Assembly (NCBI GenBank): GCA_031360505.1 | Contig: JANMBR010000107.1 | Coordinates: 608 to 64,607 of the forward strand | Reading direction: 5' to 3' | DNA length: 64,000 nt | Origin: Acidobacteriota bacterium | Lineage (GTDB): Bacteria > Acidobacteriota > Thermoanaerobaculia > UBA5066 > Gp7-AA6 | Shown here: positions 23,360-64,000 of the stretch, in pieces | How positions within the stretch are numbered: position 1 is the first letter of the stretch | How the letters are laid out: the number at the start of each line of letters is the position of its first letter | Program-made: the position numbers and the translations under genes | Notes under the pieces: model-generated | Database searches by the model: none | Told to the model about the DNA's origin: nothing | What the model saw: only the letters and a program-made list of their open reading frames with translations

Positions 23360-23653
23360 CTAATACATCTCCACCTTCGGGATCATCAACGCCCGCACCG
23401 CACAGTTTCCGTTGATTCGCGCCTGGCACCCGAGCCGCCGGCCCTCGCCCATGTCGTAGGCCAGCTCCTGCGGATTGACCGGAGAGAGACTCTCGCTCCC
23501 CACGACGACCTCCACGCGGCAGGTCGAGCAAGTGCCATTGCCGCCGCACACGTGGCTGATCCTGACGCCCAGATCGAGTGCAGCCTGGAGCACCGTGGTG
23601 CCGTCCGCGACCACGCCGGCTTTCCCCTCGTTGACGAAAACGATCGTGGGCAT
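23360..23653 (-). CDS. 2Fe-2S ferredoxin
   Basis: 97 aa with 'CGGNGTCSTCRVEV...C' plant/adrenodoxin-type Cys spacing. Confidence 0.8.
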   Translation of the reverse strand: MPTIVFVNEGKAGVVADGTTVLQAALDLGVRISHVCGGNGTCSTCRVEVVVGSESLSPVNPQELAYDMGEGRRLGCQARINGNCAVRALMIPKVEMY

Positions 23654-24293
23654 GACAATCGCGACCTTGCAGAATCAGGGTAGCACAGCGAATTCGCCAG
23701 GCCGCTTTCCGGCTCGGCCCGACGAGGAGTTCTGGATTGGACGCCCGTTCGACGCCCGCGCGCGCTTCGGCCGCGTTGCCCCGCTCGAGGTCGAGATCGG
23801 CAGCGGTAAGGCCCGATTCCTCGTCGCCTCGGCGCTCGAGCATCCGGCCCACAACTTTCTTGGGCTGGAGCGGTCGCTCTCCTACTACCGCCTCTGCCGC
23901 GAGCGCGTCACGCGCGCCGGGCTCGCCAACGCGGCCATGGTGCGCGCCGACGGGCGCCTGTTCGTCGAGACCGCTCTGGCCGAGGGCTCCGTGCGCGCCT
24001 TCCATGTGTACTTCCCCGACCCGTGGCCGAAGAAGAAGCAGAAGAAGCGCCGCCTGCTCGACGGCGTCTTCCTCGAGACGGCCGCCGGACGGCTCGAGCC
24101 GGGCGGAATCCTCCGCATTGCCACCGACCACCCGGACTACGGCGCGCACCTCGAGACCGTCGTCGAAACCGTGCCTCCACTCGAGCGGCTGGCCTGGGAC
24201 GCCTTCCCGCTGCCCCCGCCGACGAACTACGAGATCAAGTACGAGCGGGAGGGCCGGCCGATCTGGAGGTTCCTGCTCCGCAGGAGATCCTAG
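23652..24293 (+). CDS. trmB: tRNA (guanine46-N7)-methyltransferase TrmB (start uncertain)
   Basis: 'LEVEIGSGKARFLV', 'AFHVYFPDPWPKKKQKKRR' and 'ILRIATDHPDY' are diagnostic TrmB motifs. Confidence 0.75.
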   Translation: MTIATLQNQGSTANSPGRFPARPDEEFWIGRPFDARARFGRVAPLEVEIGSGKARFLVASALEHPAHNFLGLERSLSYYRLCRERVTRAGLANAAMVRADGRLFVETALAEGSVRAFHVYFPDPWPKKKQKKRRLLDGVFLETAAGRLEPGGILRIATDHPDYGAHLETVVETVPPLERLAWDAFPLPPPTNYEIKYEREGRPIWRFLLRRRS

Positions 24294-45816: not shown

Positions 45817-45891
45817 CCCGACTCCCCCCGACTCTGCTAGCATCCCTCCGTCCTCATCCGATCAGGCGCTCCTCGGCCCCGAGGAGGCCCG

Positions 45892-47448
45892 ATGCTCGCC
45901 CGAATCAACTCCGCCGCCACACTCGGTATCGACGCCCGCATCCTCGACGTCGAGGTCGATGCTTCAGGCGGCTTTCCCCGGTTCACGATCGTGGGTTTGC
46001 CCGACACGAGCGTTCGCGAGGCCCGCGAGCGCGTGCGTTCGGCCCTGAAGAACTGCGGGTTTTGGCTTCCGGCCGGGGCCGTCACCGTCAACCTCGCTCC
46101 GGCCGACTTTCGCAAATCGGGCGCCTCGCTCGATCTTCCGGTCGCGATCGGCCTTCTCTGTCTGCAGGGTGTGCGGTCGAGCTCTGCCGCGCGGCGGGTC
46201 TTCGTCGGAGAGCTCGGGCTCGGCGGCGAGGTCCGGTCTGTTCGCGGCGCGCTCTGCCTCGCCCTGGCTGCGCGCGAAGCCGGCTTCGACGAAATCGTCC
46301 TTCCGGCCGAGAACGCTGCCGAGGCCGCGGCGATCGACGGCATCCGCGTGATTCCTGTTTCGCATCTCTCCGCCGCCGTCGATCACGTCGCGGGCACCCG
46401 GCCCATCCCGGCGGCCCGGGCGCCAGAAGCGACGCTCTGCCGAACAGCGGGGCCGGACTTCTCCGAAATCCGGGGACAGGCCATCGCTCGCCGCGCGGCC
46501 GAAATCGCGGCCGCTGGCGGCCACCACCTCCTGTTGACGGGCCCGCCCGGCGCGGGCAAGACCATGCTGGCGCGCCGGCTGCCCGGGATCCTTCCGCTCT
46601 TGACCGCGCCCGAAGCCATCGAGGTCACGCGCATCCATTCAGTCGCCGGGGCGCTGCCGCCCGGTTCGGGCCTGATCACGGCGCCGCCCTTCCGCGCCCC
46701 CCACCACGGGATTTCGAGCGCCGGCCTCGTGGGAGGCGGATCCAGACCGGCGCCCGGCGAAGCGTCACTCGCCCATCGCGGGATCCTTTTCCTCGACGAG
46801 CTGCCGGTGTTTCGGCGTGACGTGCTCGAAGCCATCCGCCAGCCGCTCTAAGAGCGCCGCCTCTCGGTCGTCCGCGCCCAGGGCGCCGCCGTGTTCCCGT
46901 GCGACGTGTTGCTCGTCGCGGCGATGAATCCGTGTCCCTGCGGATTCCTCGGCGATCCGCGGCACCCGTGCGCCTGCGACCCCCGCGACCGCGTCCGATA
47001 CGCGCGCAAGCTCTCGGGCCCGCTGCTCGATCGCATCGATCTTCACGTGACGATGGCTGCCGTCCCCTGGAAAGAGCTGTCGGCCGCGGACAACGGCGAG
47101 AATTCCGCTGCCGTGCGTTCGCGGGTCGAAGCGGCACGGCTTCGCGCGGCGGAGCGGCGGCCGGCAGTCGCCGGCTTTCGCAACGCGGACCTCTCTGCAC
47201 AGGAACTTGGGCAATATTGTGTTCTCGATCACCAAGGCCTGCTCCTTCTCGAAAAAGCGGTCGCGCGCCTCGGCCTGTCCGTTCGCGCGGTGCACCGAGC
47301 GCTCCGTGTCGCCCGAACGATCGCGGATCTGGCCCAATCGCAACGGGTTACCCCTGCGCATCTCGCCGAGGCATTCTCGTTCCGAGCGCCGGCGCTCGTC
47401 TCGTCCTGCCCGAACGAGCAGGTTGACTCCCGCCTGAGGCCTACATAG
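45892..47448 (+). pseudogene. comM: YifB/ComM-family Mg-chelatase-like AAA+ ATPase interrupted by an in-frame TAA at 46849-46851
   Basis: The ORFs 45892..46851 and 46891..47448 share one frame: '...[39 protein letters not shown]...'. Homologs have Glu (GAA) at the stop position. Confidence 0.8.
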
Positions 47449-55929: not shown

Positions 55930-57105
55930 CTAGCGGCCCGACGCAGCCTTTCGATTCGAACGTCGCCCGGCGCCCTGAAGCTCCCCGAGCAGCTCGTCCA
56001 CACGGGCCAGACCCTCGAGCGTCTTCCCGACGTCGTACCCGTAGCCGATCCGAATGTAGCGCCCGATCCCGAAGTGCGCCCCCGGTGTGATCAGGACCGA
56101 CTTCTCGAGCCGCAGGCGGTCGAAGAGGGCCGGCGAGCCGATCGGGAGGCGGTATTTCACAAGGGCAATCGCTCCTGCCACCGGCGCGATGTACTCGAGG
56201 AGGTCTCCGTGCCCCCGGATCCATTCCTCGACCCGGGGCAGGTGGCGGCGGATGATGCTCCGCGTCCGCGCCAGGATCTCCTCGCGCCGGCCAGGCTCCA
56301 TCGCCGCGCGCGCGAGTCGGTCGGACAGCATGGACGGCGTCAGCGTCGTGTAGTCCTGGTAGGACCAGAAGGACGCCGTTTGTTTCGGAGGGGCCACGAT
56401 CCAACCGATGCGCAGGCCCGGGAGGCCGAAGGCCTTGGACAGGCCCGCCGTGACGATGACCTTGGAATACCGGCCCCAGAAGGTCGGCGAGCTCGTGTCC
56501 GTCCCGACTTCGGCGCCGCGGTAGACCTCGTCGGAAACGACCCATGCCCCGAACTTGCGCGCCACCCGGATGATCTCCCCCATCTCCTCCTCGGTCAGCA
56601 CGGCGCCCGTCGGGTTGTTCGGGTTGGTCACCATGATGACCTTCGTCTTCTTCGTCACGGCGCGCTCCAGGCTCGCCACGTCGAGCCCCCACCGGTGGTG
56701 CAGGCCCCGGCGCTTCTCGACGAGCCGGTAGGCATCCGCCCGCCCCGCGTAGGCCCGAGCGAGACCCCACGACTGCATGTAGTTCGGGATCATCACGGCG
56801 ACCCGGTCGCCCTTTTCGAGCAGCCCCCAGAGGGTCGTGTAGTTCGCTTCGGAGCAGCCGGTCGTGACGAGCACGTTGTCGGCCGTCGCGCCCGGGTAGA
56901 ACATCGCGATCCGCTCGCGCAGCAGGCGGGAGCCGTTCGACTCCGGGTACTTCAGAGCGAGGCCGAGGAACTCGGCACTGCCCGCTTCCCCCTCGAGGAG
57001 CTCCTCCACCCGCAGGGGCGCAACGCCGCTCTCCGAGATGTTCCACTGCACCTCGTTCTCGTAGAGGCACTGGGTGCGTTCCATCTGGAAACGATCAATG
57101 CGCAT
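55930..57105 (-). CDS. class I/II PLP-dependent aminotransferase
   Basis: 'NPNNPTG' and 'LSKAFGLPGLRIGW' (PLP-Lys in SKAF) motifs. Confidence 0.85.
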   Translation of the reverse strand: MRIDRFQMERTQCLYENEVQWNISESGVAPLRVEELLEGEAGSAEFLGLALKYPESNGSRLLRERIAMFYPGATADNVLVTTGCSEANYTTLWGLLEKGDRVAVMIPNYMQSWGLARAYAGRADAYRLVEKRRGLHHRWGLDVASLERAVTKKTKVIMVTNPNNPTGAVLTEEEMGEIIRVARKFGAWVVSDEVYRGAEVGTDTSSPTFWGRYSKVIVTAGLSKAFGLPGLRIGWIVAPPKQTASFWSYQDYTTLTPSMLSDRLARAAMEPGRREEILARTRSIIRRHLPRVEEWIRGHGDLLEYIAPVAGAIALVKYRLPIGSPALFDRLRLEKSVLITPGAHFGIGRYIRIGYGYDVGKTLEGLARVDELLGELQGAGRRSNRKAASGR

Positions 57106-57214
57106 GGCAACCCCCGAACGGTGCGAGGATCGTATCAGCGCGTCGGATGGGCGCGTTGCGCGTGATGCAAACGCACCACTCCGCGGAGCGCGCGCTCGAC
57201 GACACTGGATCCGG

Positions 57215-58693
57215 ATGACGGACCGGAAGCTGACCCCGAGTCAAGCCGGAGCGGCGTTTGCCCGACTGACGCCGGCGCAGTGCGAATCTCTGCACGGCGC
57301 GAGCCTCGAGATTCTCGAACGCACGGGGGTTCGGCTCTTCGAGCCGGAGGCGGTCGAGCTCGCCCGCCGCGCCGGCGCGGCGGTCTCGGACGGCAATCGC
57401 GTCCGGATTCCCCCGCGGCTGATCGAGCAAGCGTTCGCGACGGTTCCTCGGCGCGTCGTTCTCCACGACCGCCTCGGCCGCCCGGTCATGCCGCTCGAGG
57501 GGGCCCGAACCTATTTCGGACCCGGCTCGGATTGCCTGAACATCATCGACCACCGCACGGGCGAGCGGCGACGCGCCTCTCTCCAGGACGTCCGGGAAGC
57601 CGCGCGCCTTTGCGACGCGCTCGAGCACATCCGCTTCGTGATGTCCATGTTCCTGCCCTCCGACGTCCAACCCGATCTGGCCGACCGGCTCCAGTTCGAG
57701 GCGATGCTCCAGAACACGTCGAAGCCCATCGTCTTCGTCACCTACGAGATGTCCGGCTGCGCCGACGTGATCGAGATGGCCGAGGCGGTCGCCGGGGGAG
57801 CCGACGCGCTCCGCGAGAGGCCGTTTGCGGCCTGCTACATCAATGTCACGACAGGCCTGCTCCACAACGCCGACGCCCTGCAGAAGCTCCTCTTTCTCGC
57901 CGAAAAGGGCCTGCCGGCGCTCTACATCCCGGTGGTGTCGGGAGGGACGAGCGGGCCGATGACGATGGCGGGAGGCCTGGCCCTCTCCAACGCCGGTGCA
58001 CTGACGGGCCTCGTACTCTCGCAGTTGAAGCGCCCCGGGGCGCCCTTCGTCATGCCCGGGTTCGGCGGCGACGCGCTCGACATGCGGACGATGGTCGATC
58101 CGTACTGCGCGCCCGAGCCCCGGGGGATGGCCGAGGCGCTCGGGCATTTCTATGATCTGCCCCTCTTCTGCCTCGGCGGCAGCAGTGAATCGAAACTGGT
58201 CGACGCGCAGGCCGGCATCGAAGCAGCCCTGAGCATGCTGGTCGGCGCGATGGCGGGCGGCCACCTCTTTCACGACCTCGGCTACCTCGAGTCGGGACTC
58301 TCGGGCTCGCTTGCTCAGCTGGCCATCTGCAACGAGATCGCGGGCTGGATCTCGAGCTTCCGGCAGCCGGTCGAGATCAATGCGGAGACCCTCGCCCTGG
58401 ATCTCATCGACCAGGCGGGGCCGGAGGGCCAGTTTCTGAAGTTGCCGCACACCCGGCGCCACATGAGGGAGCGCTGGTATCCGACGATCTTCGACCGCGA
58501 CAACCATCACGGCTGGCTCGCGCGGGGCGGCAAGACGCTGCCGGAGCGGGCCGCGGACCACGTCGCGCGCCTCCTCGACAACCACCGACCGCAGCCTCTC
58601 GATGAGGCCGCCGCACGGGCGGTGGCTCGTGTCATCGAGCGCGCCGCGGCACGAACGGCGTCCGGGCCGGCGCGAGCAAAAGCCCATGCATGA
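57215..58693 (+). CDS. MttB-family (trimethylamine methyltransferase superfamily) substrate:corrinoid methyltransferase, non-pyrrolysine type
   Basis: Full-length MttB-like TIM-barrel protein (PF06253-like) with no in-frame amber codon. Start at the ATG for MTDRKL. Confidence 0.75.
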   Translation: MTDRKLTPSQAGAAFARLTPAQCESLHGASLEILERTGVRLFEPEAVELARRAGAAVSDGNRVRIPPRLIEQAFATVPRRVVLHDRLGRPVMPLEGARTYFGPGSDCLNIIDHRTGERRRASLQDVREAARLCDALEHIRFVMSMFLPSDVQPDLADRLQFEAMLQNTSKPIVFVTYEMSGCADVIEMAEAVAGGADALRERPFAACYINVTTGLLHNADALQKLLFLAEKGLPALYIPVVSGGTSGPMTMAGGLALSNAGALTGLVLSQLKRPGAPFVMPGFGGDALDMRTMVDPYCAPEPRGMAEALGHFYDLPLFCLGGSSESKLVDAQAGIEAALSMLVGAMAGGHLFHDLGYLESGLSGSLAQLAICNEIAGWISSFRQPVEINAETLALDLIDQAGPEGQFLKLPHTRRHMRERWYPTIFDRDNHHGWLARGGKTLPERAADHVARLLDNHRPQPLDEAAARAVARVIERAAARTASGPARAKAHA

Positions 58694-59333
58694 CGATCTT
58701 CTCGACGCGATGCGCCGCAGCATCCTCGAGGGCGATCCCGATCGGGCCGCCGCGCTCGCGACCGAGGCCCTCGCGCTCTGCCTCGCCCCGCTCGAGGCCA
58801 TCCAGCGGGGATTCGTTCCAGGCCTGGACGAGGTCGGCGAAGGGTTCGGAAGAGGCGACCTTTTCCTGCCCGATCTCGTGATGGCCGGCGAGGCGATGAA
58901 GGCGGCTACGGCAGTGCTCGAGCCGGAGATGCAGAGGGGCGGCGTGCATCGGGAGATCCTGGGCAAGGTCGTGCTCGGGACCGTCCAGGGCGATATCCAC
59001 GAGATCGGCAAGACCCTCGTCTCCACCATGCTCTCGGCCGCCGGCTTCGAAGTGCACGACATCGGCGTGGACGTGCCGTTCGAGACCTTCGCCCTGCGCG
59101 CGCGCGAGCTCGACGCCGACATCGTGGGCGTCTCGGCGCTGCTGACGACGACGATGACCGGCCAGCGCCACGTCGTCGAGGCGCTCGACCGACACGGCTT
59201 GCGTCCCCGGGTGAAAGTCATCGTGGGAGGCGCTCCGGTGACCCGGGGCTGGGCCGAAGAGATCGGCGCGGACGGCTACGGGGAGGACGCGGTGGCTGCG
59301 GTGGCGCTCGCCAAGGCGCTCGTCGGCCGCTAG
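58686..59333 (+). CDS. cobalamin-binding corrinoid protein (B12-binding domain, MtbC/MtgC-like)
   Basis: 'GTVQGDIHEIGK' DxHxxG cobalamin-ligating motif and a Rossmann B12-binding fold. Overlaps the upstream MttB stop by 8 bp. Confidence 0.85.
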   Translation: MHDDLLDAMRRSILEGDPDRAAALATEALALCLAPLEAIQRGFVPGLDEVGEGFGRGDLFLPDLVMAGEAMKAATAVLEPEMQRGGVHREILGKVVLGTVQGDIHEIGKTLVSTMLSAAGFEVHDIGVDVPFETFALRARELDADIVGVSALLTTTMTGQRHVVEALDRHGLRPRVKVIVGGAPVTRGWAEEIGADGYGEDAVAAVALAKALVGR

Positions 59334-59344
59334 CAGGAAGCTCG

Positions 59345-60790
59345 ATGCGGCCGAGGTTCTCTCTGCTCGACCCGGTGCTTCTCGGGCGGATCCTCGAGGA
59401 GGCCTTTACCCTGCTGATGCGGCCGGGGGTGCGGGTCCACGGCGTCGCCGCCGAGATTCTCGCTTCCGCGGGAGCCGTCGTCGAGGCGGGTGTGGCGCAC
59501 ATTCCCGAGCCCCTCGCGCGCCGCGCCCTCGCCTCCGCACCCTCGGAATTCTTCCTCCACGATCGGAGCGGCCGCGCGTGCGTCCGCTACGGCGGGGACT
59601 CCGTGCACTTCGATCCGGGGTCGTCCTGTGTTCACGTCCTCGACCCGGAGACCGGGGAGCACCGCGAGTCGCTGTCGGCCGATCTCGTCCGCCTGGTCCA
59701 GGTCGCGGAAATGCTGCCCGAGTACGCAGCGCAGTCCACGGCCCTCGTCTGCGGCGACGTGCCGAAGGAGATCGGCGACCTGTATCGCCTCTTCCTCGTA
59801 CTGCTCTATTCCGAAAAGCCGATCGTCACCGGCGCCTTCACGGCAAGCGCGGTCAGATCGATGGTGGATCTTCTGGTGGCCGACGCCGGAGGAGAGGTGG
59901 CCCTGCGCCGGAGGCCGCGCGCCGTTTTCGACGTGTGTCCTTCCCCCCCGTTGAACTGGTCCGCGTTCGCGTCGGACAGCCTCGTGGAGCTCGCGCGCGC
60001 CGGTGTGCCGGCCGAGATCGTCTCCGTTCCGCTCGCGGGCGCCGCGGCCCCGGTGACGCTCGCCGGCGCCGCCGTGCAGCACGCGGCCGAGTGCATCACC
60101 GGAGTCACCATCTCCCAGCTCGCCGAACCCGGGGCGCCGGTCGTGTGGGGCGGGGCGCCGTCGATCTTCGACATGCGCACCGGCACGACGCCCATGGGAG
60201 CCGTCGAGACCGCCATGATCGACCTGGCGTGCGCCGAGGTGGGCAAGAGCCTGGGCCTTCCGACCCACGCCTACCTCGGCGGCAGCGACGCCAAGCGCGT
60301 CGACGCGCAGGCCGGAATGGAGAGCGGGATCGCGATCCTGCTCGGCGCGCTCGGCGGCATCAACATGATCTCCGGGGCCGGGATGCTGGACTTCCTCGGC
60401 TGTCAGAGCGCCGAGAAGCTGGTGCTCGATGCCGAAGCAATCGCCTCGGCGCGCCGGCTCCTCGACGGCATCGAGGCGCGGACGGATTCCCTCGCCGTCG
60501 GCATGTTCGAGCGGGTCGGCCTCGCGGGCGAGTTTCTGAAGCTGGCGGATACCCGCAGGCTCTTTCGGCTCGAGCAGCATCTTCCCTCGGCCGTGACGGA
60601 CCGCGGTTCGCTGCGGGCGTGGGAGGACGCCGGCAGGCGCGACGCCTTCGCCCGCGCTCGCACCCGCGTCGCGGATCTCGTCGCAGCGTACCGGCGGCCG
60701 TCGCTCGACCCAGCCACGCGACGCCGGATCTTCGACGTCGTGGAACCTCTGGCGGCGCAAGCCGGCCTGGACGGACTGCCGGGAACATGA
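59345..60790 (+). CDS. second MttB-family substrate:corrinoid methyltransferase paralog (non-pyrrolysine)
   Basis: 481 aa, homologous in architecture to 57215..58693, with no in-frame TAG. Confidence 0.75.
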   Translation: MRPRFSLLDPVLLGRILEEAFTLLMRPGVRVHGVAAEILASAGAVVEAGVAHIPEPLARRALASAPSEFFLHDRSGRACVRYGGDSVHFDPGSSCVHVLDPETGEHRESLSADLVRLVQVAEMLPEYAAQSTALVCGDVPKEIGDLYRLFLVLLYSEKPIVTGAFTASAVRSMVDLLVADAGGEVALRRRPRAVFDVCPSPPLNWSAFASDSLVELARAGVPAEIVSVPLAGAAAPVTLAGAAVQHAAECITGVTISQLAEPGAPVVWGGAPSIFDMRTGTTPMGAVETAMIDLACAEVGKSLGLPTHAYLGGSDAKRVDAQAGMESGIAILLGALGGINMISGAGMLDFLGCQSAEKLVLDAEAIASARRLLDGIEARTDSLAVGMFERVGLAGEFLKLADTRRLFRLEQHLPSAVTDRGSLRAWEDAGRRDAFARARTRVADLVAAYRRPSLDPATRRRIFDVVEPLAAQAGLDGLPGT

Positions 60791-61491
60791 CGGCCTCCCC
60801 CGGGATGCCAGTGTGGCTCGACGGGCTGGACGCGAATAGCGTCCTCCGGGCGCAGGGCGCCGACGCAGCGCGGGTGCGCGCGCGCAGTCCGCGCCTGGTC
60901 GCCGTCGCGGAACGGACCGTGAGGGAAGGCCTCCCGCTGCTCGACCCGCGCCTGACCTACTGCCTCCTCGAAGTGCGCCTCCGGGAGCCCGGACGCATCG
61001 TCCTCGAGGGCGGTGAGACCCTCACGGGACCTCTCGTTGCCAGGGTCCTCTCCAGCGCCAGGTCGGTGGCGGTCGTCGCCGCGACGGTTGGCGCGCGCCT
61101 GGAATCCCGCGTTTCACGGATGTTCGGCCTCGACCTGCCCTACGCCCTCGCCCTCGACGGGCTCGGGTCGTGCGCCGTCCAGTCACTGTCGCTTTCGGCA
61201 AGAAACCTCGTCCGTGAGCTCGCCCGGCGGGAAGGACTGCGTGCGACTGCTCCCGTGAGCCCGGGGATGGAGGGGTGGCCGCTCGAGGAGGGCCAGAAAG
61301 AGATTTTCCGGCTGCTCGACCCGGTCGTGTCCGGCGTCCGTCTGACTTCCAGGGGTTGGATGCTCCCGCGAAAGTCCCTCTCCATGGTGTTTGGACTCGG
61401 GGCCGCGGTCCGAGACAGCGGCGAGACCTGCGACACCTGCACCGGGCGCAATTCCTGCCGGTATCGGAATCGTCGTGGAACACCCGGCTAG
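60787..61491 (+). CDS. methionine-synthase activation-domain-like protein (Met_synt_B12-like), putative corrinoid-system accessory protein
   Basis: 'GMEGWPLEEGQKEIFRLLDPVVSGVRLTSRGWMLPRKSLSMVFGLG' resembles the MetH reactivation-domain C-terminus. ATGA overlap with the upstream MttB paralog. Confidence 0.5.
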   Translation: MTASPGMPVWLDGLDANSVLRAQGADAARVRARSPRLVAVAERTVREGLPLLDPRLTYCLLEVRLREPGRIVLEGGETLTGPLVARVLSSARSVAVVAATVGARLESRVSRMFGLDLPYALALDGLGSCAVQSLSLSARNLVRELARREGLRATAPVSPGMEGWPLEEGQKEIFRLLDPVVSGVRLTSRGWMLPRKSLSMVFGLGAAVRDSGETCDTCTGRNSCRYRNRRGTPG

Positions 61492-63106
61492 CCTCCGCCC
61501 CAGCGCCCACGGACTCGTCGTCGTGGATCTCCAGCCCGTCGGGCGCCGCGCCGGCGTGAAGAAGGGGACGACGATCCTCGCCGCGGCGCAGTCGGTCGGC
61601 GTGGAGCTCCAGGCCATCTGCGGTGGCGCGGGAACCTGCGGCGGTTGCCGCGTGCGCCTGGCCCATGGCGCGCTCGGCGATCCCACGCCCGAAGAGCTCC
61701 GCGAGCTTTCCGCGGCTGAGATCGCGTCGGGCCTGCGCATGGCCTGCCAGGCGACGGCCCCCGGAGACGTCCGCGTGGACATCCCGTCCGAGTCCCTCAC
61801 CGCAGCCCAGCGGGTGCAACTCGAGGGCGGGGAGGCAGCCATCCCGGCGGGGCCCTCGCGGCTCTTGCGCCTGGGGCTCGCAATCGACATCGGCACGACC
61901 AAGCTCGCGGTCTATCTCATGGACCTGGAGAGTGGCTGCACGGTGGCCCGCGCCGGGGCGATGAACCCGCAGATCGCCTACGGCGAAGACCTCATCAGCC
62001 GGATCGCGTACACGGACCGCACCCCCGCGGGAGGGCGGGTACTCCGGGAGAAGCTCCTGGACCGGCTCAACCGCCTGATCGAGGGAATGTGCAAGCAGGT
62101 CGGCGCTTCGCGAGACCGGATCCTCGACGTCGTCGCGGTCGGAAATACCGTGATGCATCACCTGTTCGTCGGGCTGCCCGTGCGCACGCTCGGCGCCGCG
62201 CCCTACCGCCCTCTCACGACCGACGCGCTCGATCTGTCTGCCCGCGACGCCGGGCTCGACCTTTGGGCCGGCACGCACGTCTTCGTTCCGTCCAACGTCG
62301 CCGGCTACGTCGGCGCGGACCACGTCGCCGCGCTGCTGTCGACCGGCGTCGGGGAGACGCGCCGCACGGCGCTCGCCCTCGACATCGGCACCAACACCGA
62401 AATCAGCCTCGCCCGCGGCCAGCGGCTCTTCTCGTGCTCGTCGCCGTCCGGGCCCGCCTTCGAAGGAGCGCACATCAGCGCCGGGATGCGGGCCGCGCCC
62501 GGCGCCATCGAGCGCGTCCGCATTCGCGGCGCCGAGGTTTCGACCTACACGATCGGGCGCCTGCCGCCGATCGGCATCTGCGGCTCTGGCGTCCTGGACG
62601 CTGTGGCCCAAATGCGCGCCGTGGGCGCCATCGACCGGCGCGGCAACTTCCGCGCGCAAGTTCCGGGCGTCCGCGCCCGAGAGGGGCAGCCCGAGTTCCT
62701 CCTGGTTCCGGCGGCGGAAACGGGCCACCGCCGCGACATCACGGTCACCCGCGGCGACGTCAACGAAATCCAGCTCGCGAAGGCGGCGATCCGCGCCGGA
62801 ATCGGCGTCCTCCTCCAGGAGGCGCAATGCGAGCCCGACGAACTCGAGGAGATCGTCGTCGCCGGCGCCTTTGGCTCCTACCTCGATCTCTCGAGCGCCG
62901 TGCGGGCAGGCCTGCTGCCCGCAGTCCCCCTCGAGCGCTTTCGCCAGGTCGGCAACGCCGCCGGCGCGGGAGCACGCCAGATGCTTCTCTCGGTGGAGAG
63001 ACGCCGCACCGCGCAGACGATCGCCCGCCGCATCGAATACGTGGAACTGGCGGCGCATCCGGCGTTCCACCGCGGCTTCGTAAACGCGATGAGCTTCGAG
63101 GACTGA
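61391..63106 (+). CDS. RamA/RACo-type ATP-dependent reductive activator of corrinoid proteins (2Fe-2S ferredoxin domain plus ASKHA/DUF4445). The true start is probably ~61520.
   Basis: N-terminal 'TTILAAAQSVGVELQAICGGAGTCGGCRV' plant-type ferredoxin, then 'GLAIDIGTTKLAVYLMDL', 'ALDIGTNTEISL' and 'ICGSGVLD' ASKHA motifs. Confidence 0.8.
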   Translation: MDSGPRSETAARPATPAPGAIPAGIGIVVEHPASLRPSAHGLVVVDLQPVGRRAGVKKGTTILAAAQSVGVELQAICGGAGTCGGCRVRLAHGALGDPTPEELRELSAAEIASGLRMACQATAPGDVRVDIPSESLTAAQRVQLEGGEAAIPAGPSRLLRLGLAIDIGTTKLAVYLMDLESGCTVARAGAMNPQIAYGEDLISRIAYTDRTPAGGRVLREKLLDRLNRLIEGMCKQVGASRDRILDVVAVGNTVMHHLFVGLPVRTLGAAPYRPLTTDALDLSARDAGLDLWAGTHVFVPSNVAGYVGADHVAALLSTGVGETRRTALALDIGTNTEISLARGQRLFSCSSPSGPAFEGAHISAGMRAAPGAIERVRIRGAEVSTYTIGRLPPIGICGSGVLDAVAQMRAVGAIDRRGNFRAQVPGVRAREGQPEFLLVPAAETGHRRDITVTRGDVNEIQLAKAAIRAGIGVLLQEAQCEPDELEEIVVAGAFGSYLDLSSAVRAGLLPAVPLERFRQVGNAAGAGARQMLLSVERRRTAQTIARRIEYVELAAHPAFHRGFVNAMSFED

Positions 63107-63124: not shown

Positions 63125-64000
63125 CTAGCTCACGGTGACGACGACCTTCCCGGTCGTGCCGCGGCCCGCCAGCGCGCGGTGGGCGTCGGGCAACTGGTCG
63201 AACGAGAACCGCGGTCCGAGAACCGGGCGGATGCGTCCGTCCTTCCAGAGCGCGAAAACATTCTGGGCCGCGCGCTGGAGCTCCCCCGTGCGGTCCGGAA
63301 GCAGCGACAGGTTGAAACCGATGAGCGTCTTGCAGGTCTGGACGAAGCTGTAGGGCGAGAAGAGCCCCATCGCAAGCAGCTCCCGGACCGCCGTCAGCTT
63401 GGCCACACCCGAGGCGCCGGAGGCCGCGGCAAAGCCGTAGAGGACGTAACGGCCCGAGGGGCCGAGCCGCCGCCACAAGCGGCGGAAGACGCGGCCGCCG
63501 ATCGCATCCACGACGACATCGGCGACGCCGCCGAAAGCGCGATCGACGAGCTCGTCGGCCGACTCGTAGATTCCGACATCCGAGGCGCCGAGCGCACGAC
63601 AGGCCGCAATCTTGGCTTCCGAGCCGACGAGAGCGATCACCTTCGCTCGCTTTTCTTTCAGTACCTGGAGCAGCGCCGAGCCCACTCCCCCAGCCGCCGC
63701 AGTAACCACAACCCGATCACCCTCAGCGACCTCAGCTCGCGCGCAGGCGTACCAGGCCGTCAGAAAGGCGACGGGAACGGCAGCGGCCTCCACGAAATCC
63801 ACGCCCTCCGGTAACGGGAACACGTGCGTCGCCTTCGAGACGACCTTCTCCGCGTGCCCCCCGAAGATCGGCACGGCCACGACGCGCCGTCCCGGCGTCA
63901 CATCGGTGACGCCCTCCCCCACCGCCTCAACAGTTCCCGAGATTTCCATTCCCGGCACGAACGGCGGCTTCGGCGCCCGCGGATAGTCTCCCGAACGCAC
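63125..64000 (-). CDS. NADPH:quinone oxidoreductase / medium-chain dehydrogenase-reductase family protein (N-terminus beyond the window)
   Basis: 'AAAGGVGSALLQV' cofactor-binding motif and an MDR fold. The ORF runs to the right edge of the window. Confidence 0.8.
   Translation of the reverse strand: MRSGDYPRAPKPPFVPGMEISGTVEAVGEGVTDVTPGRRVVAVPIFGGHAEKVVSKATHVFPLPEGVDFVEAAAVPVAFLTAWYACARAEVAEGDRVVVTAAAGGVGSALLQVLKEKRAKVIALVGSEAKIAACRALGASDVGIYESADELVDRAFGGVADVVVDAIGGRVFRRLWRRLGPSGRYVLYGFAAASGASGVAKLTAVRELLAMGLFSPYSFVQTCKTLIGFNLSLLPDRTGELQRAAQNVFALWKDGRIRPVLGPRFSFDQLPDAHRALAGRGTTGKVVVTVS

What the first reader, a model, noticed from the sequence alone, without database searches (positions are those of the whole stretch)
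57215..63106. Corrinoid-dependent methyl-transfer module: two non-pyrrolysine MttB paralogs, a B12-binding protein, a MetH-activation-domain-like protein and a RamA/RACo activator
Five co-directional, overlapping genes encode MT1a, CoP, MT1b, an accessory protein and a reductive activator. This is the architecture of quaternary-amine (glycine betaine, proline betaine, carnitine) demethylation systems characterised in strict anaerobes such as Desulfitobacterium and Eubacterium. Two MttB paralogs flank one corrinoid protein, and no methylcorrinoid:THF methyltransferase (MtgA/MtqA-like) is in the window. This suggests either a shared or remote MT2 (MetH?) or a different methyl acceptor. Neither MttB paralog has an in-frame TAG, so they are not Pyl-dependent.
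Basis: partly seen in the sequence, partly recalled or inferred. Interest (0 to 1): 0.6.

Follow-up and report, generated by a model that had tools for sequence, protein, structure and literature searches.

The report
Corrinoid methyl-transfer operon with paired reactivators
A five-gene operon in a probable soil Acidobacteriota genome moves methyl groups through a vitamin-B12 carrier protein, using two uncharacterised MttB-type enzymes and an apparently undescribed pair of B12 repair proteins, with the methyl-acceptor enzyme encoded somewhere else.

Summary
Window 57215-63106 (+) carries five tightly packed genes: MttB-1, a corrinoid protein, MttB-2, a 234-aa accessory protein and a RACo-type activase. 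Neither MttB has an in-frame TAG. No pterin-binding or homocysteine-binding methyltransferase is found anywhere in the 64 kb.

The two MttBs are 32% identical and belong to two large, separately conserved clades. Both lack Arg312, which is conserved in every characterised betaine-type member, and they lack most other glycine-betaine contacts of MtgB. A glycine betaine, proline betaine or carnitine assignment is therefore not supported.

The accessory protein has the MetH reactivation-domain fold; its profile matches T. maritima TM0269 at E 6.7e-13. Its family replaces the AdoMet motif RxxxGY with PxxPGM and adds a C-terminal CxxCx5C. RACo lies directly downstream in 40 of 73 related loci with enough sequence. 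I found no paper describing this pairing.

In relatives the same parts sit next to a pterin MT2 (43 of 80 loci), a homocysteine S-methyltransferase, or both. So the missing acceptor is most likely unlinked. The whole resembles a fully split MetH toolkit with MttB methyl donors. This is a new variant of a known kind.

The parts
57215..58693 (+). MttB-1: non-pyrrolysine MttB-superfamily methyltransferase (putative MT1), 492 aa. Pocket signature S(or D)/F/S/H/G at MtgB Y97/R312/Pyl334/H348/F356.
   Evidence: PF06253 E 4e-87. TIGR02369 scores 361, below the 525 cut-off. Best PDB match is MtgB 9yce/2qne at 186 bits. No in-frame TAG. Member of a large clade at 61-93% identity. Signature from the alignments.
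58157..58195 (+). MttB-1 segment LPLFCLGGSSESK. It covers the positions equivalent to MtgB R312 (Phe here) and MttB Pyl334 (Ser here).
58686..59333 (+). Corrinoid (B12-binding) protein, 215 aa, MttC/MtgC-like. Its start overlaps the MttB-1 stop by 8 nt.
   Evidence: PF02607 plus PF02310. TIGR02370 scores 219.7, above the 215.3 cut-off. Best PDB match is M. barkeri MttC 7xcn_M, E 5.5e-58.
58992..59009 (+). DxHxxG motif (DIHEIG) of the corrinoid protein, which supplies the lower-axial His ligand.
59345..60790 (+). MttB-2: non-pyrrolysine MttB-superfamily methyltransferase (putative core MT1), 481 aa. Pocket signature S/H/G/S/L.
   Evidence: PF06253 E 3e-83. Best PDB match is MttB 7xcl at 191 bits. 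32% identical to MttB-1. Clade of 482-aa proteins at 65-93% identity, with signature S-H-(G/A)-S-L in 119 of 120. No in-frame TAG.
60257..60295 (+). MttB-2 segment LPTHAYLGGSDAK. It covers the positions equivalent to MtgB R312 (His here) and MttB Pyl334 (Gly here).
60787..61491 (+). Accessory protein ('Acc'), 234 aa: a stand-alone MetH reactivation-domain-fold protein, joined to MttB-2 by an ATGA overlap.
   Evidence: Profile hit to PDB 1J6R (TM0269), E 6.7e-13. AF2 model pLDDT 87.6. The top 19 Foldseek PDB hits are all MetH reactivation domains. Family size is 435 cluster representatives at E<=1e-30.
61252..61269 (+). PVSPGM in Acc. It aligns with the E. coli MetH AdoMet motif R1134-P-A-P-G-Y1139, so Arg is replaced by Pro and Tyr by Met.
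61429..61458 (+). C-terminal CxxCx5C motif of Acc (C215, C218, C224), a putative metal or Fe-S site. This region is low-confidence in the model.
   Evidence: C215 and C218 are invariant and C224 is 97% conserved in A1. CxxCx4-6C is present in 249 of 259 full-length family members. pLDDT is below 50 for residues 212-234.
61475..63106 (+). RACo-type ATP-dependent reductive activase of corrinoid enzymes, 543 aa from GTG 61475. Alternative starts are TTG 61391 and GTG 61523. It has an N-terminal 2Fe-2S domain (CGGAGTCGGC, 61619-61648) and ASKHA motifs DIGTT and DIGTN.
   Evidence: PF00111, PF17651 and PF14574. PDB 3zyy (C. hydrogenoformans RACo) E 3e-105. The start is inferred from sequence and from gene calls in L082/L083.

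Best explanation
The five genes form one operon for corrinoid-dependent methyl transfer plus cofactor repair.

Methyl transfer (inferred from family chemistry): MttB-2 and MttB-1 belong to two different, widely conserved non-pyrrolysine MttB clades. Each takes a methyl group from a small methylated compound and puts it on the Co(I) form of the shared MttC-like corrinoid protein. The substrate is probably an N-methyl or quaternary ammonium compound, and probably not a glycine-betaine-type carboxylate.

Methyl acceptor (inferred from relatives): the methyl-Co(III) carrier is unloaded by an acceptor module that is not in this operon. In relatives this module is a pterin-binding MT2 that makes methyl-tetrahydrofolate, and/or a stand-alone homocysteine S-methyltransferase that makes methionine.

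Repair (inferred): when the cofactor is oxidised to Co(II), a two-protein unit restores it. The RACo-type activase delivers a low-potential electron from its 2Fe-2S cluster, driven by ATP. The MetH-reactivation-domain-like accessory protein assists, most likely by docking on the uncapped B12 domain as the MetH domain does. Its Cys-rich tail may hold a metal or Fe-S centre.

What is shown: the family and fold assignments, the gene order, the conservation, the neighbourhood statistics, and the absence of both acceptor modules from the window.
For: - Domain and fold assignments are strong.
- Tight coupling of the five genes points to one transcription unit.
- The same five-gene order occurs in L002, L003, L083 and L082 (MttB-1 is truncated in L082). 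L082 sits in a different genomic neighbourhood, so the cluster moves as a unit.
- In 80 loci anchored on Acc homologs, RACo lies directly downstream in 40 of the 73 loci with enough sequence. A Pterin_bind MT2 lies directly upstream in 31 of 74 and is present in 43 of 80. Corrinoid proteins occur in about 30 loci and MttBs in about 18.
- Complete sets CoP-MttB(-MttB)-MT2-Acc-RACo exist in L022, L047 and L055. L024 and L063 carry the same set but with no clear corrinoid protein.
- L092 has MttB-1-clade, CoP, Acc and RACo divergent from formate-THF ligase, MTHFR, MT2 and an amino-acid permease.
- A homocysteine S-methyltransferase (PF02574) sits beside CoP-MttB-2-Acc in L084, L085, L068 and L061. 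In L090 it is inserted between CoP and the second MttB.
- The MttB-1 and MttB-2 clades co-occur with one CoP in the independent contigs L089 and L091.
- Precedent for dispersed components and a two-protein activator (RamA-like plus DUF1638) comes from PMC12478193 and PMC5764234.
Against: - No acceptor module is present in the 64 kb window or within about 10 kb in the closest relatives. The acceptor is therefore inferred only by analogy.
- The substrate is unknown. The pocket residues differ from every characterised member.
- Acc lacks the RxxxGY AdoMet motif. AdoMet-dependent reductive methylation, the known role of this fold, may not apply.
- Metal binding by the Cys tail is untested, and that region of the model is low-confidence.
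- About 45% of Acc homologs with enough downstream sequence are not followed by RACo.
- No promoter, terminator or riboswitch was detected.
Confidence: 0.7

Rival explanations
1. This is a canonical quaternary-amine demethylase of the MtgB/MtpB/MtcB type, acting on glycine betaine, proline betaine or carnitine. Its methylcorrinoid:THF methyltransferase is simply encoded elsewhere.
For: - Both enzymes belong to the MttB superfamily and lack pyrrolysine.
- MttB-1's best PDB match is the glycine betaine methyltransferase MtgB.
- MttB-1 keeps the His equivalent to MtgB H348.
- Relatives carry a THF-type MT2.
- L088 has proline-racemase and D-amino-acid-oxidase family neighbours, which would fit proline-derived betaines.
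Against: - R312 makes the salt bridge to the substrate carboxylate and is conserved in all characterised members. It is Phe in the MttB-1 clade and His (rarely Gln) in the MttB-2 clade.
- The cation-pi residues Y97 and F356 are Ser (or Asp) and Gly in MttB-1, and Ser and Leu in MttB-2.
- Identity to MtgB is only about 30%.
- No betaine transporter or downstream dimethylglycine or sarcosine genes were seen among the window genes scanned.
Confidence: 0.2
2. The system is mainly a methionine-synthesis route. It would be a fully split MetH-like enzyme in which MttB proteins replace methyl-THF as the methyl source. A stand-alone homocysteine-binding methyltransferase, unlinked in this genome, would be the acceptor.
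For: - PF02574 genes lie directly beside CoP-MttB-2-Acc(-RACo) in four Acidobacteriota loci, and inside the MttB-1-CoP-MttB-Acc cluster of L090.
- Acc is homologous to the MetH reactivation domain.
- L055 carries separate Hcy, pterin, B12 and reactivation modules together with MttBs.
- R. pomeroyi shares one corrinoid protein between glycine betaine demethylation and methionine synthesis.
Against: - No PF02574-type ORF is in the window or in its closest syntenic relatives.
- A pterin MT2 is the far commoner neighbour of Acc (43 loci against 7).
- L092 links the system to THF-dependent C1 oxidation genes.
Confidence: 0.25
3. One of the two MttB paralogs works in reverse as the MT2. It would pass the methyl group from the corrinoid protein to an unknown non-folate acceptor, making the operon self-sufficient.
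For: - Two deeply diverged MttBs (32% identical) flank one corrinoid protein, and no other acceptor is present locally.
- The two clades recur together in L089 and L091.
Against: - No MttB-superfamily member is known to act as an MT2 (my own knowledge of the family).
- Relatives with only one of the two clades still have a separate MT2 or Hcy methyltransferase.
- The MttB-1 ortholog is truncated to 213 aa in L082, while the rest of the cluster is intact.
Confidence: 0.05
4. The cluster is a decaying or non-functional remnant that has lost its acceptor gene.
For: There is no local acceptor, and MttB-1 is truncated in the relative L082.
Against: - All five ORFs are intact, with catalytic and cofactor motifs preserved.
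- Orthologs are 80-93% identical across several MAGs with the same order.
- Dispersed components are normal for such systems.
Confidence: 0.03

Closest known systems
Desulfitobacterium hafniense MtgB/MtgC/MtgA glycine betaine:THF methyltransferase system (MtgB structures 2QNE and 9YCE)
   Same: A non-pyrrolysine MttB-superfamily MT1 works with a small B12-binding protein. MtgB is the best PDB match of MttB-1. Many relatives of this cluster carry a pterin-binding MT2.
   Different: Identity is only about 30%. The glycine-betaine-binding residues Y97/R312/H348/F356 are not conserved. There are two MT1 paralogs and no adjacent MT2. An Acc plus RACo repair pair is encoded in the operon.
Methanosarcina barkeri MttB/MttC trimethylamine methyltransferase with RamA (7XCL-7XCN)
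   Same: MttB is the best PDB match of MttB-2 (191 bits), and MttC is the best match of the corrinoid protein (E 5.5e-58).
   Different: There is no pyrrolysine; the equivalent position is Gly or Ser, with no TAG. TIGR02369 scores are below the cut-off. The activator is RACo-type with a 2Fe-2S domain, not RamA with 4Fe-4S clusters. The host is bacterial, and CoM is not the expected acceptor.
Ruegeria pomeroyi / Phaeobacter inhibens MtgBCD(E) split methionine synthase-glycine betaine system, with a RamA-like protein and DUF1638 (PMC12478193, PMC5764234)
   Same: MttB-type donors feed a stand-alone corrinoid protein. That protein is unloaded by separate pterin-binding and homocysteine-binding modules. 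Genes are dispersed around the genome. A RACE-family activase is paired with a second accessory protein.
   Different: Here the accessory protein is a MetH-reactivation-domain homolog with a Cys tail, not DUF1638; no DUF1638 hit was found even at E<=10. Price et al. found no PF02965 member in P. inhibens. The MttB clades differ and lack the betaine-binding Arg.
Thermotoga maritima TM0268/TM0269 split MetH (PDB 1J6R)
   Same: Both have a stand-alone protein of about 215-235 aa with the MetH reactivation-domain fold. The profile E-value is 6.7e-13 and the Foldseek E-value 7.8e-09.
   Different: TM0269 keeps R-x-x-P-G-Y (RISPGY), while the Acc family has PxxPGM. Acc adds a CxxCx5C tail. Acc is coupled to RACo and to MttB/MT2 systems rather than to a MetH core. 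The reported TM0269 function (Huang et al. 2007) is cited from memory and from a reference list; the paper itself was not held.
Carboxydothermus hydrogenoformans RACo, the reductive activator of CoFeSP (PDB 3ZYY, 4C1N)
   Same: Both have an N-terminal 2Fe-2S domain, a middle domain and an ASKHA ATPase domain. E is 3e-105, and the DIGTT/DIGTN motifs are conserved.
   Different: The linker region is shorter (543 against 631 aa). The AcsV equivalog score is 390, below the cut-off of 800. The partner is a small MttC-like corrinoid protein rather than CoFeSP. An obligate-looking upstream Acc gene is present.
MecG/MecH of the anaerobic dichloromethane (mec) cassette
   Same: An accessory protein of unknown function is encoded with a RACo-type activase inside a corrinoid methyltransferase cluster.
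   Different: By that paper's description MecG shares domain organisation with the DUF1638-type partner. It is not a MetH reactivation-domain protein.

Membership tests
MttB superfamily (PF06253) | Full-length match to the MTTB profile above the gathering score | tested here: met
   MttB-1 scores 292.7 bits and MttB-2 279.9 bits against a cut-off of 25. Both cover about 465 of 500 profile positions.
Pyrrolysine-dependent trimethylamine methyltransferase MttB (TIGR02369 equivalog) | In-frame UAG (pyrrolysine) at the active site, and a score above the equivalog cut-off | tested here: not met
   There are 0 in-frame TAG codons. The Pyl334-equivalent residue is Ser in MttB-1 and Gly in MttB-2. Scores are 360.6 and 335.2 against a cut-off of 525.
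MtgB-type glycine betaine methyltransferase, and betaine-type members generally | Substrate-binding residues Y97, R312, H348 and F356. R312 is conserved in all characterised members (PMC13080624). | tested here: not met
   MttB-1 has S(or D)/F/H/G and MttB-2 has S/H/S/L in three independent alignments. The same signatures hold across each clade; 119 of 120 MttB-2 homologs show it.
Methyltransferase cognate corrinoid protein (TIGR02370; MttC/MtgC/MtbC-like) | B12-binding cap plus Rossmann B12-binding domain with the DxHxxG motif, and a score above the cut-off | tested here: met
   PF02607 and PF02310 are both present. TIGR02370 scores 219.7 against a cut-off of 215.3. The substrate-specific models (MtgC, MtbC, MtaC) all score below their cut-offs. 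DIHEIG lies at residues 103-108.
RACE / RACo family of ATP-dependent reductive activators | Fe-S domain plus RACo middle domain plus C-terminal ASKHA ATPase domain with its phosphate-binding motifs | tested here: met
   PF00111, PF17651 (E 8e-51) and PF14574 (E 2e-82) are present. PDB 3zyy matches at E 3e-105. CGGAGTCGGC, DIGTT and DIGTN are present. ATPase and reductase activity cannot be tested here.
RamA (TIGR04270) / AcsV (NF040756) specific subfamilies | Score above the curated cut-off; for RamA, C-terminal 4Fe-4S ferredoxin motifs | tested here: not met
   TIGR04270 scores 132.3 against a cut-off of 500, and NF040756 scores 390.1 against 800. The Fe-S domain is an N-terminal 2Fe-2S type.
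MetH activation (reactivation) domain, PF02965 | Fold of the C-terminal MetH domain | tested here: met
   The AF2 model has pLDDT 87.6. Foldseek ranks 1-19 are all MetH reactivation domains, with E from 7e-09 to 4e-05 and TM-score 0.56-0.68 normalised to the query. The profile hits 1J6R at E 6.7e-13.
MetH activation (reactivation) domain, PF02965 | Pfam gathering score | tested here: not met
   PF02965 scores 12.4 bits against a cut-off of 25 (E 0.11). Only 2 of 120 homologs carry a precomputed PF02965 hit.
MetH activation (reactivation) domain, PF02965 | AdoMet-binding motif Arg-x-x-x-Gly-Tyr (E. coli R1134...G1138-Y1139; Dixon et al. 1996, from my own knowledge) | tested here: not met
   The motif aligns to P156-V-S-P-G160-M161. 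Across 259 family members PxxPGM is the dominant form (145), and none of the listed variants has R...GY.
MetH activation (reactivation) domain, PF02965 | AdoMet-dependent reductive methylation of cob(II)alamin | not testable with these tools
   This needs biochemistry: AdoMet binding, and reactivation assays with Co(II)-corrinoid protein.
DUF1638 (PF07796), the known partner of RamA-like activases | Match to PF07796 | tested here: not met
   A Pfam scan of Acc at E<=10 returned only PF02965.
Complete three-component MT1-CoP-MT2 methyltransferase system | A methylcorrinoid:acceptor methyltransferase encoded with MT1 and CoP (pterin-binding PF00809, Hcy-binding PF02574, or URO-D type) | tested here: not met
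   The MT2 HMM found no hit at E<=10 among the window's six-frame ORFs of at least 70 aa. A phmmer search with two PF02574 proteins also found none. None appeared among the roughly 37 window proteins scanned with Pfam. No URO-D-type MT2 appeared among those proteins either, but it was not searched for separately. The rest of the genome could not be searched.

The most novel reading that the evidence does not exclude
Two linked novelties remain possible.

(1) Acc plus RACo may be a previously undescribed two-component corrinoid repair system. A derivative of the MetH reactivation domain has lost the AdoMet motif (PxxPGM in place of RxxxGY) and gained a three-Cys metal or Fe-S site. It would work with an ATP-dependent RACo activase, filling the role that DUF1638 has beside RamA-like proteins in Alphaproteobacteria.

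(2) The MttB-1 and MttB-2 clades may define new substrate classes. Both are highly conserved across Acidobacteriota and Chloroflexota, and MttB-2 also occurs in a Gemmatimonadales MAG. Both lack the carboxylate-binding Arg. Their substrates may be amino-acid-derived or non-acidic N-methyl compounds. Their methyl groups would feed either tetrahydrofolate or homocysteine in a fully split, MetH-like modular toolkit of soil bacteria.
Probability: 0.35. Interest if true: 0.7.

Novelty: new variant of a known kind. Interest (0 to 1): 0.55.

Why it matters
Corrinoid-dependent demethylation of methylated nitrogen compounds has been characterised mainly in methanogens, in gut and sediment anaerobes, and recently in marine Alphaproteobacteria.

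This cluster and its relatives point to two large, uncharacterised MttB clades in soil and freshwater Acidobacteriota and Chloroflexota; MttB-2 also occurs in a Gemmatimonadales MAG. These clades lack the residues that define betaine specificity. Annotating them as glycine betaine or trimethylamine methyltransferases in metagenomic carbon and nitrogen budgets is therefore probably wrong.

The recurrent pairing of a MetH-reactivation-domain derivative with a RACo activase suggests a second solution to B12 repair. It combines elements of the AdoMet-dependent MetH route and the ATP-dependent RACo/RamA route. This gives a concrete two-protein system for testing how low-potential Co(II) reduction is assisted.

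The mix-and-match of donor modules (MttB, non-Pyl MtmB), acceptor modules (pterin, homocysteine) and repair modules around one corrinoid protein also shows how MetH-like enzymes may be assembled from parts, or taken apart.

Tried and rejected
- Exact-protein look-up of MttB-2 for a longer source contig returned only a 2-kb metagenome contig. The region beyond the window end and the rest of the genome could not be read.
- Rfam at gathering thresholds over the whole window gave 0 hits, so no cobalamin riboswitch was found. ARAGORN found 0 tRNAs. Promoter and terminator scans over the operon gave nothing above shuffled expectation.
- Pfam and NCBIfam on Acc alone gave no significant hit. Only the family profile and the structure prediction resolved it.
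- The Foldseek afdb50 library was not available. The Huang et al. 2007 TM0269 paper was not held.
- Literature searches returned nothing on a MetH-activation-like protein combined with MttB or RACo. This is an absence within the held open-access library only.
- I considered the divergent aminotransferase (55930-57105, minus strand) and the downstream quinone-oxidoreductase-like gene (63125-64000, minus strand) as possible members. I rejected both. The aminotransferase is absent in L083 and L082, and the oxidoreductase is absent in L082.
- I considered MttB-1 to be specific to this lineage, on the evidence of the Acc-anchored loci. I rejected this once one search showed a large MttB-1 clade elsewhere.
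- A proper phylogeny against MtpB, MtcB, MtyB and MthB could not be built, because their sequences were not obtainable with these tools. Active-site residue comparison was used instead.

Full report
**What is there.**
The window is about 68% G+C. Between 57215 and 63106 on the + strand lie five intact, tightly packed genes.

- MttB-1 runs from 57215 to 58693 (492 aa).
- The corrinoid protein runs from 58686 to 59333 (215 aa), overlapping MttB-1 by 8 nt.
- MttB-2 runs from 59345 to 60790 (481 aa), after an 11-nt gap.
- The accessory protein, here called Acc, runs from 60787 to 61491 (234 aa), with an ATGA overlap.
- The RACo-type activase ends at 63106. Its most likely start is GTG 61475, a 17-nt overlap. 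Gene calls in two relatives use the same arrangement.

The flanking genes are on the opposite strand: a PLP aminotransferase at 55930-57105 and a quinone-oxidoreductase-like dehydrogenase at 63125-64000. The operon therefore ends at 63106. The other window genes scanned are housekeeping: SecA, GuaB, RarA, CarD, DnaK/DnaJ/HrcA, AlaRS, Ffh and others. None of them belongs to a folate, C1, cobalamin or betaine-transport family.

**Identity of the parts.**
Both MttBs match PF06253 over their full length, at E 4e-87 and 3e-83. Both fall well below the cut-off of the pyrrolysine MttB equivalog. Neither has an in-frame TAG. They are only 32% identical to each other.

The corrinoid protein has the cap and Rossmann B12 domains and the DxHxxG motif. 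It just passes the generic 'cognate corrinoid protein' model. Its best solved relative is M. barkeri MttC at E 5.5e-58.

The activase has the 2Fe-2S, RACo-middle and ASKHA domains. It matches C. hydrogenoformans RACo at E 3e-105 and keeps the cluster cysteines and the DIGTT/DIGTN motifs. It is RACo-type, not RamA-type.

**The accessory protein.**
Alone it has no significant family hit; PF02965 scores E 0.11. A database search found a family of proteins of about 230 aa, where named almost all labelled 'hypothetical'.

- A 35-sequence profile hits the stand-alone MetH reactivation protein TM0269 (PDB 1J6R) at E 6.7e-13.
- An AlphaFold model (pLDDT 87.6) returns only MetH reactivation domains as its 19 significant Foldseek hits.

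Two features set the family apart.

- The AdoMet motif of MetH is replaced. E. coli R1134-x-x-x-G-Y1139 and TM0269 RISPGY align to a near-invariant P-x-x-P-G-M.
- A C-terminal CxxCx4-6C motif is present in 249 of 259 full-length members. TM0269 has no such tail, and the motif lies in the only low-confidence part of the model.

A profile search of 1.84 billion cluster representatives gives 435 members at E<=1e-30.

**Comparative genomics.**
I anchored 80 genome loci on Acc homologs. Most are Anaerolineales or other Chloroflexota MAGs. Others come from Acidobacteriota, Acidimicrobiales, Gemmatimonadales and Spirochaetales.

- RACo lies directly downstream of Acc in 40 of the 73 loci with enough sequence.
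- A 290-aa Pterin_bind protein (MT2) lies directly upstream in 31 of 74, and is present in 43 of 80.
- Corrinoid proteins occur in about 30 loci, MttBs in about 18, and non-pyrrolysine MtmB homologs in 11.

The exact five-gene order of the window recurs in Acidobacteriota MAGs L002, L003 and L083, which also share flanking genes with the window. It recurs in L082 in a different neighbourhood, where the MttB-1 ortholog is only 213 aa. The source organism is thus most likely an Acidobacteriota bacterium.

**The missing acceptor.**
An HMM built from the 43 MT2 sequences finds nothing at E<=10 in the window, and nothing in L002, L003, L082 or L083. In other relatives the same parts sit next to an acceptor module.

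- CoP-MttB(-MttB)-MT2-Acc-RACo occurs in L022, L047 and L055. L024 and L063 carry the same set but with no clear corrinoid protein.
- L092 has MttB-1-clade, CoP, Acc and RACo divergent from formate-THF ligase, MTHFR, MT2 and an amino-acid permease.
- L088 has MttB, MttB-1-clade and MT2.
- Alternatively, a stand-alone homocysteine S-methyltransferase (PF02574) lies immediately beside CoP-MttB-2-Acc(-RACo) in L084, L085, L068 and L061.
- In L090 that gene lies between CoP and the second MttB. In L055 it sits together with an MT2.

Separate Hcy-binding, pterin-binding, B12-binding and reactivation modules are the four modules of MetH. The picture is a fully split MetH-like toolkit to which MttB donors and a RACo activase have been added. 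This parallels the MtgBCD(E) plus RamA-like plus DUF1638 system of Ruegeria and Phaeobacter. There the genes are dispersed and one corrinoid protein serves both demethylation and methionine synthesis. Absence of a local MT2 is therefore not in itself exceptional. The most economical inference is that this genome encodes its acceptor elsewhere.

**What the MttBs do.**
MtgB binds glycine betaine through Y97, F356 (cation-pi), R312 and H348 (carboxylate). R312 is reported as conserved in all characterised members: MtgB, MtcB, MtyB, MtpB and MthB.

- In three alignments MttB-1 has S(or D)/F/H/G at these positions.
- MttB-2 has S/H/S/L at the same positions.
- Each signature is clade-wide. MttB-2 belongs to a clade of 482-aa proteins at 65-93% identity, with S-H-(G/A)-S-L in 119 of 120.
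- MttB-1 belongs to a separate large clade at 61-93% identity, with S-F-x-H-G in the members examined.
- The two clades recur together around one corrinoid protein in the unrelated contigs L089 and L091. This suggests two steps or two substrates of one pathway.

The glycine betaine, proline betaine or carnitine assignment is therefore not supported, and the substrate is unknown. Neighbours in some relatives hint weakly at amino-acid-derived N-methyl compounds. These are proline-racemase and D-amino-acid-oxidase family proteins, amino-acid permeases, and here a PLP aminotransferase.

**Mechanism proposed.**
MttB-2 and MttB-1 methylate the Co(I)-corrinoid protein. An unlinked pterin MT2 and/or Hcy methyltransferase unloads it. 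RACo, with ATP and its 2Fe-2S cluster, re-reduces adventitious Co(II).

Acc probably assists by docking on the uncapped B12 domain, as the MetH reactivation domain does. Because the AdoMet motif is lost, AdoMet-dependent trapping is uncertain. The Cys tail may bind a metal or an Fe-S centre. All catalytic steps are inferred. Shown here are the family and fold assignments, the gene order, the conservation and the neighbourhood statistics.

**Novelty and score.**
The module type is known. Three things appear to be new:
- the two MttB clades with non-betaine pockets;
- the Acc family and its tight pairing with RACo, for which I found no description in the held literature;
- the interchangeable pterin and homocysteine acceptors around the same core.

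I rate this a new variant of a known kind, with interest 0.55.

Noticed in passing
L060 7642-9051 (representative); 11 of the 80 Acc-anchored loci: Non-pyrrolysine homologs of monomethylamine methyltransferase MtmB (PF05369, E 5.5e-94) occur near MT2-Acc(-RACo) in Chloroflexota MAGs. A 2026 paper links such a homolog to tetramethylammonium and choline use in a methanogen (title seen).
   Followed up: partly
L084 12272-13168 (-), L085 12230-13099 (-), L068 12499-13404 (-), L061 3499-4398 (-), L090 12244-13122 (+): Stand-alone homocysteine S-methyltransferase (PF02574) genes lie directly beside, or inside, CoP-MttB-Acc clusters. This suggests that homocysteine is a methyl acceptor in those lineages.
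   Followed up: partly
L082 7263-7904: On a 2.7-Mb contig the MttB-1 ortholog is called as only 213 aa, while CoP, MttB-2, Acc and RACo are intact. It may be a pseudogene or an assembly error.
   Followed up: no
L092 1319-8162 (-) and 8468-14530 (+): MttB-1-clade, CoP, DUF6580, Acc and RACo are divergently arranged from formate-THF ligase, a cNMP-binding protein, MTHFR(+DUF5981), a Pterin_bind MT2 and an amino-acid permease. This looks like a complete methyl-to-formate module.
   Followed up: partly
L088 186-13581: An MttB paralog, an MttB-1-clade gene and an MT2 sit downstream of an oligopeptide-type ABC transporter, a DAO-family oxidase and a proline-racemase-family protein. An Orn/DAP/Arg decarboxylase follows. 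This may hint at the substrate class.
   Followed up: no
L086 9342-17425: CoP and an MttB-2-clade gene are followed by an amidohydrolase, an SDR, two HGD-D (2-hydroxyacyl-CoA dehydratase-like) subunits and two BcrAD/BadFG activator ATPases. No Acc or RACo was found in the locus.
   Followed up: no
window 23363-23674 (-): A short ORF has weak similarity to the RACo query (42 bits). It is presumably a ferredoxin-like segment and overlaps other long ORFs in this high-GC region.
   Followed up: no
window 45841-46851 (+): A ChlI/Mg-chelatase-like (ComM/YifB-type) ORF ends after only 130 of 207 positions of the Mg_chelatase domain. It may be a frameshifted or truncated gene, or an assembly error.
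   Followed up: no
window 57095-59221 (-) and 61022-63070 (-): Very long antisense ORFs (708 and 682 aa) overlap the operon. They look like the usual artefact of 68% G+C and are not supported as genes; the sense-strand ORFs carry all the family matches.
   Followed up: partly
protein P0208 (392 aa): One Acc-family member carries an extra N-terminal region of about 158 aa of unknown nature. It may be a domain fusion that could indicate a partner.
   Followed up: no
window 1-64000: There are no tRNA genes and no Rfam family at gathering threshold in 64 kb. In particular, there is no cobalamin riboswitch upstream of the operon.
   Followed up: yes
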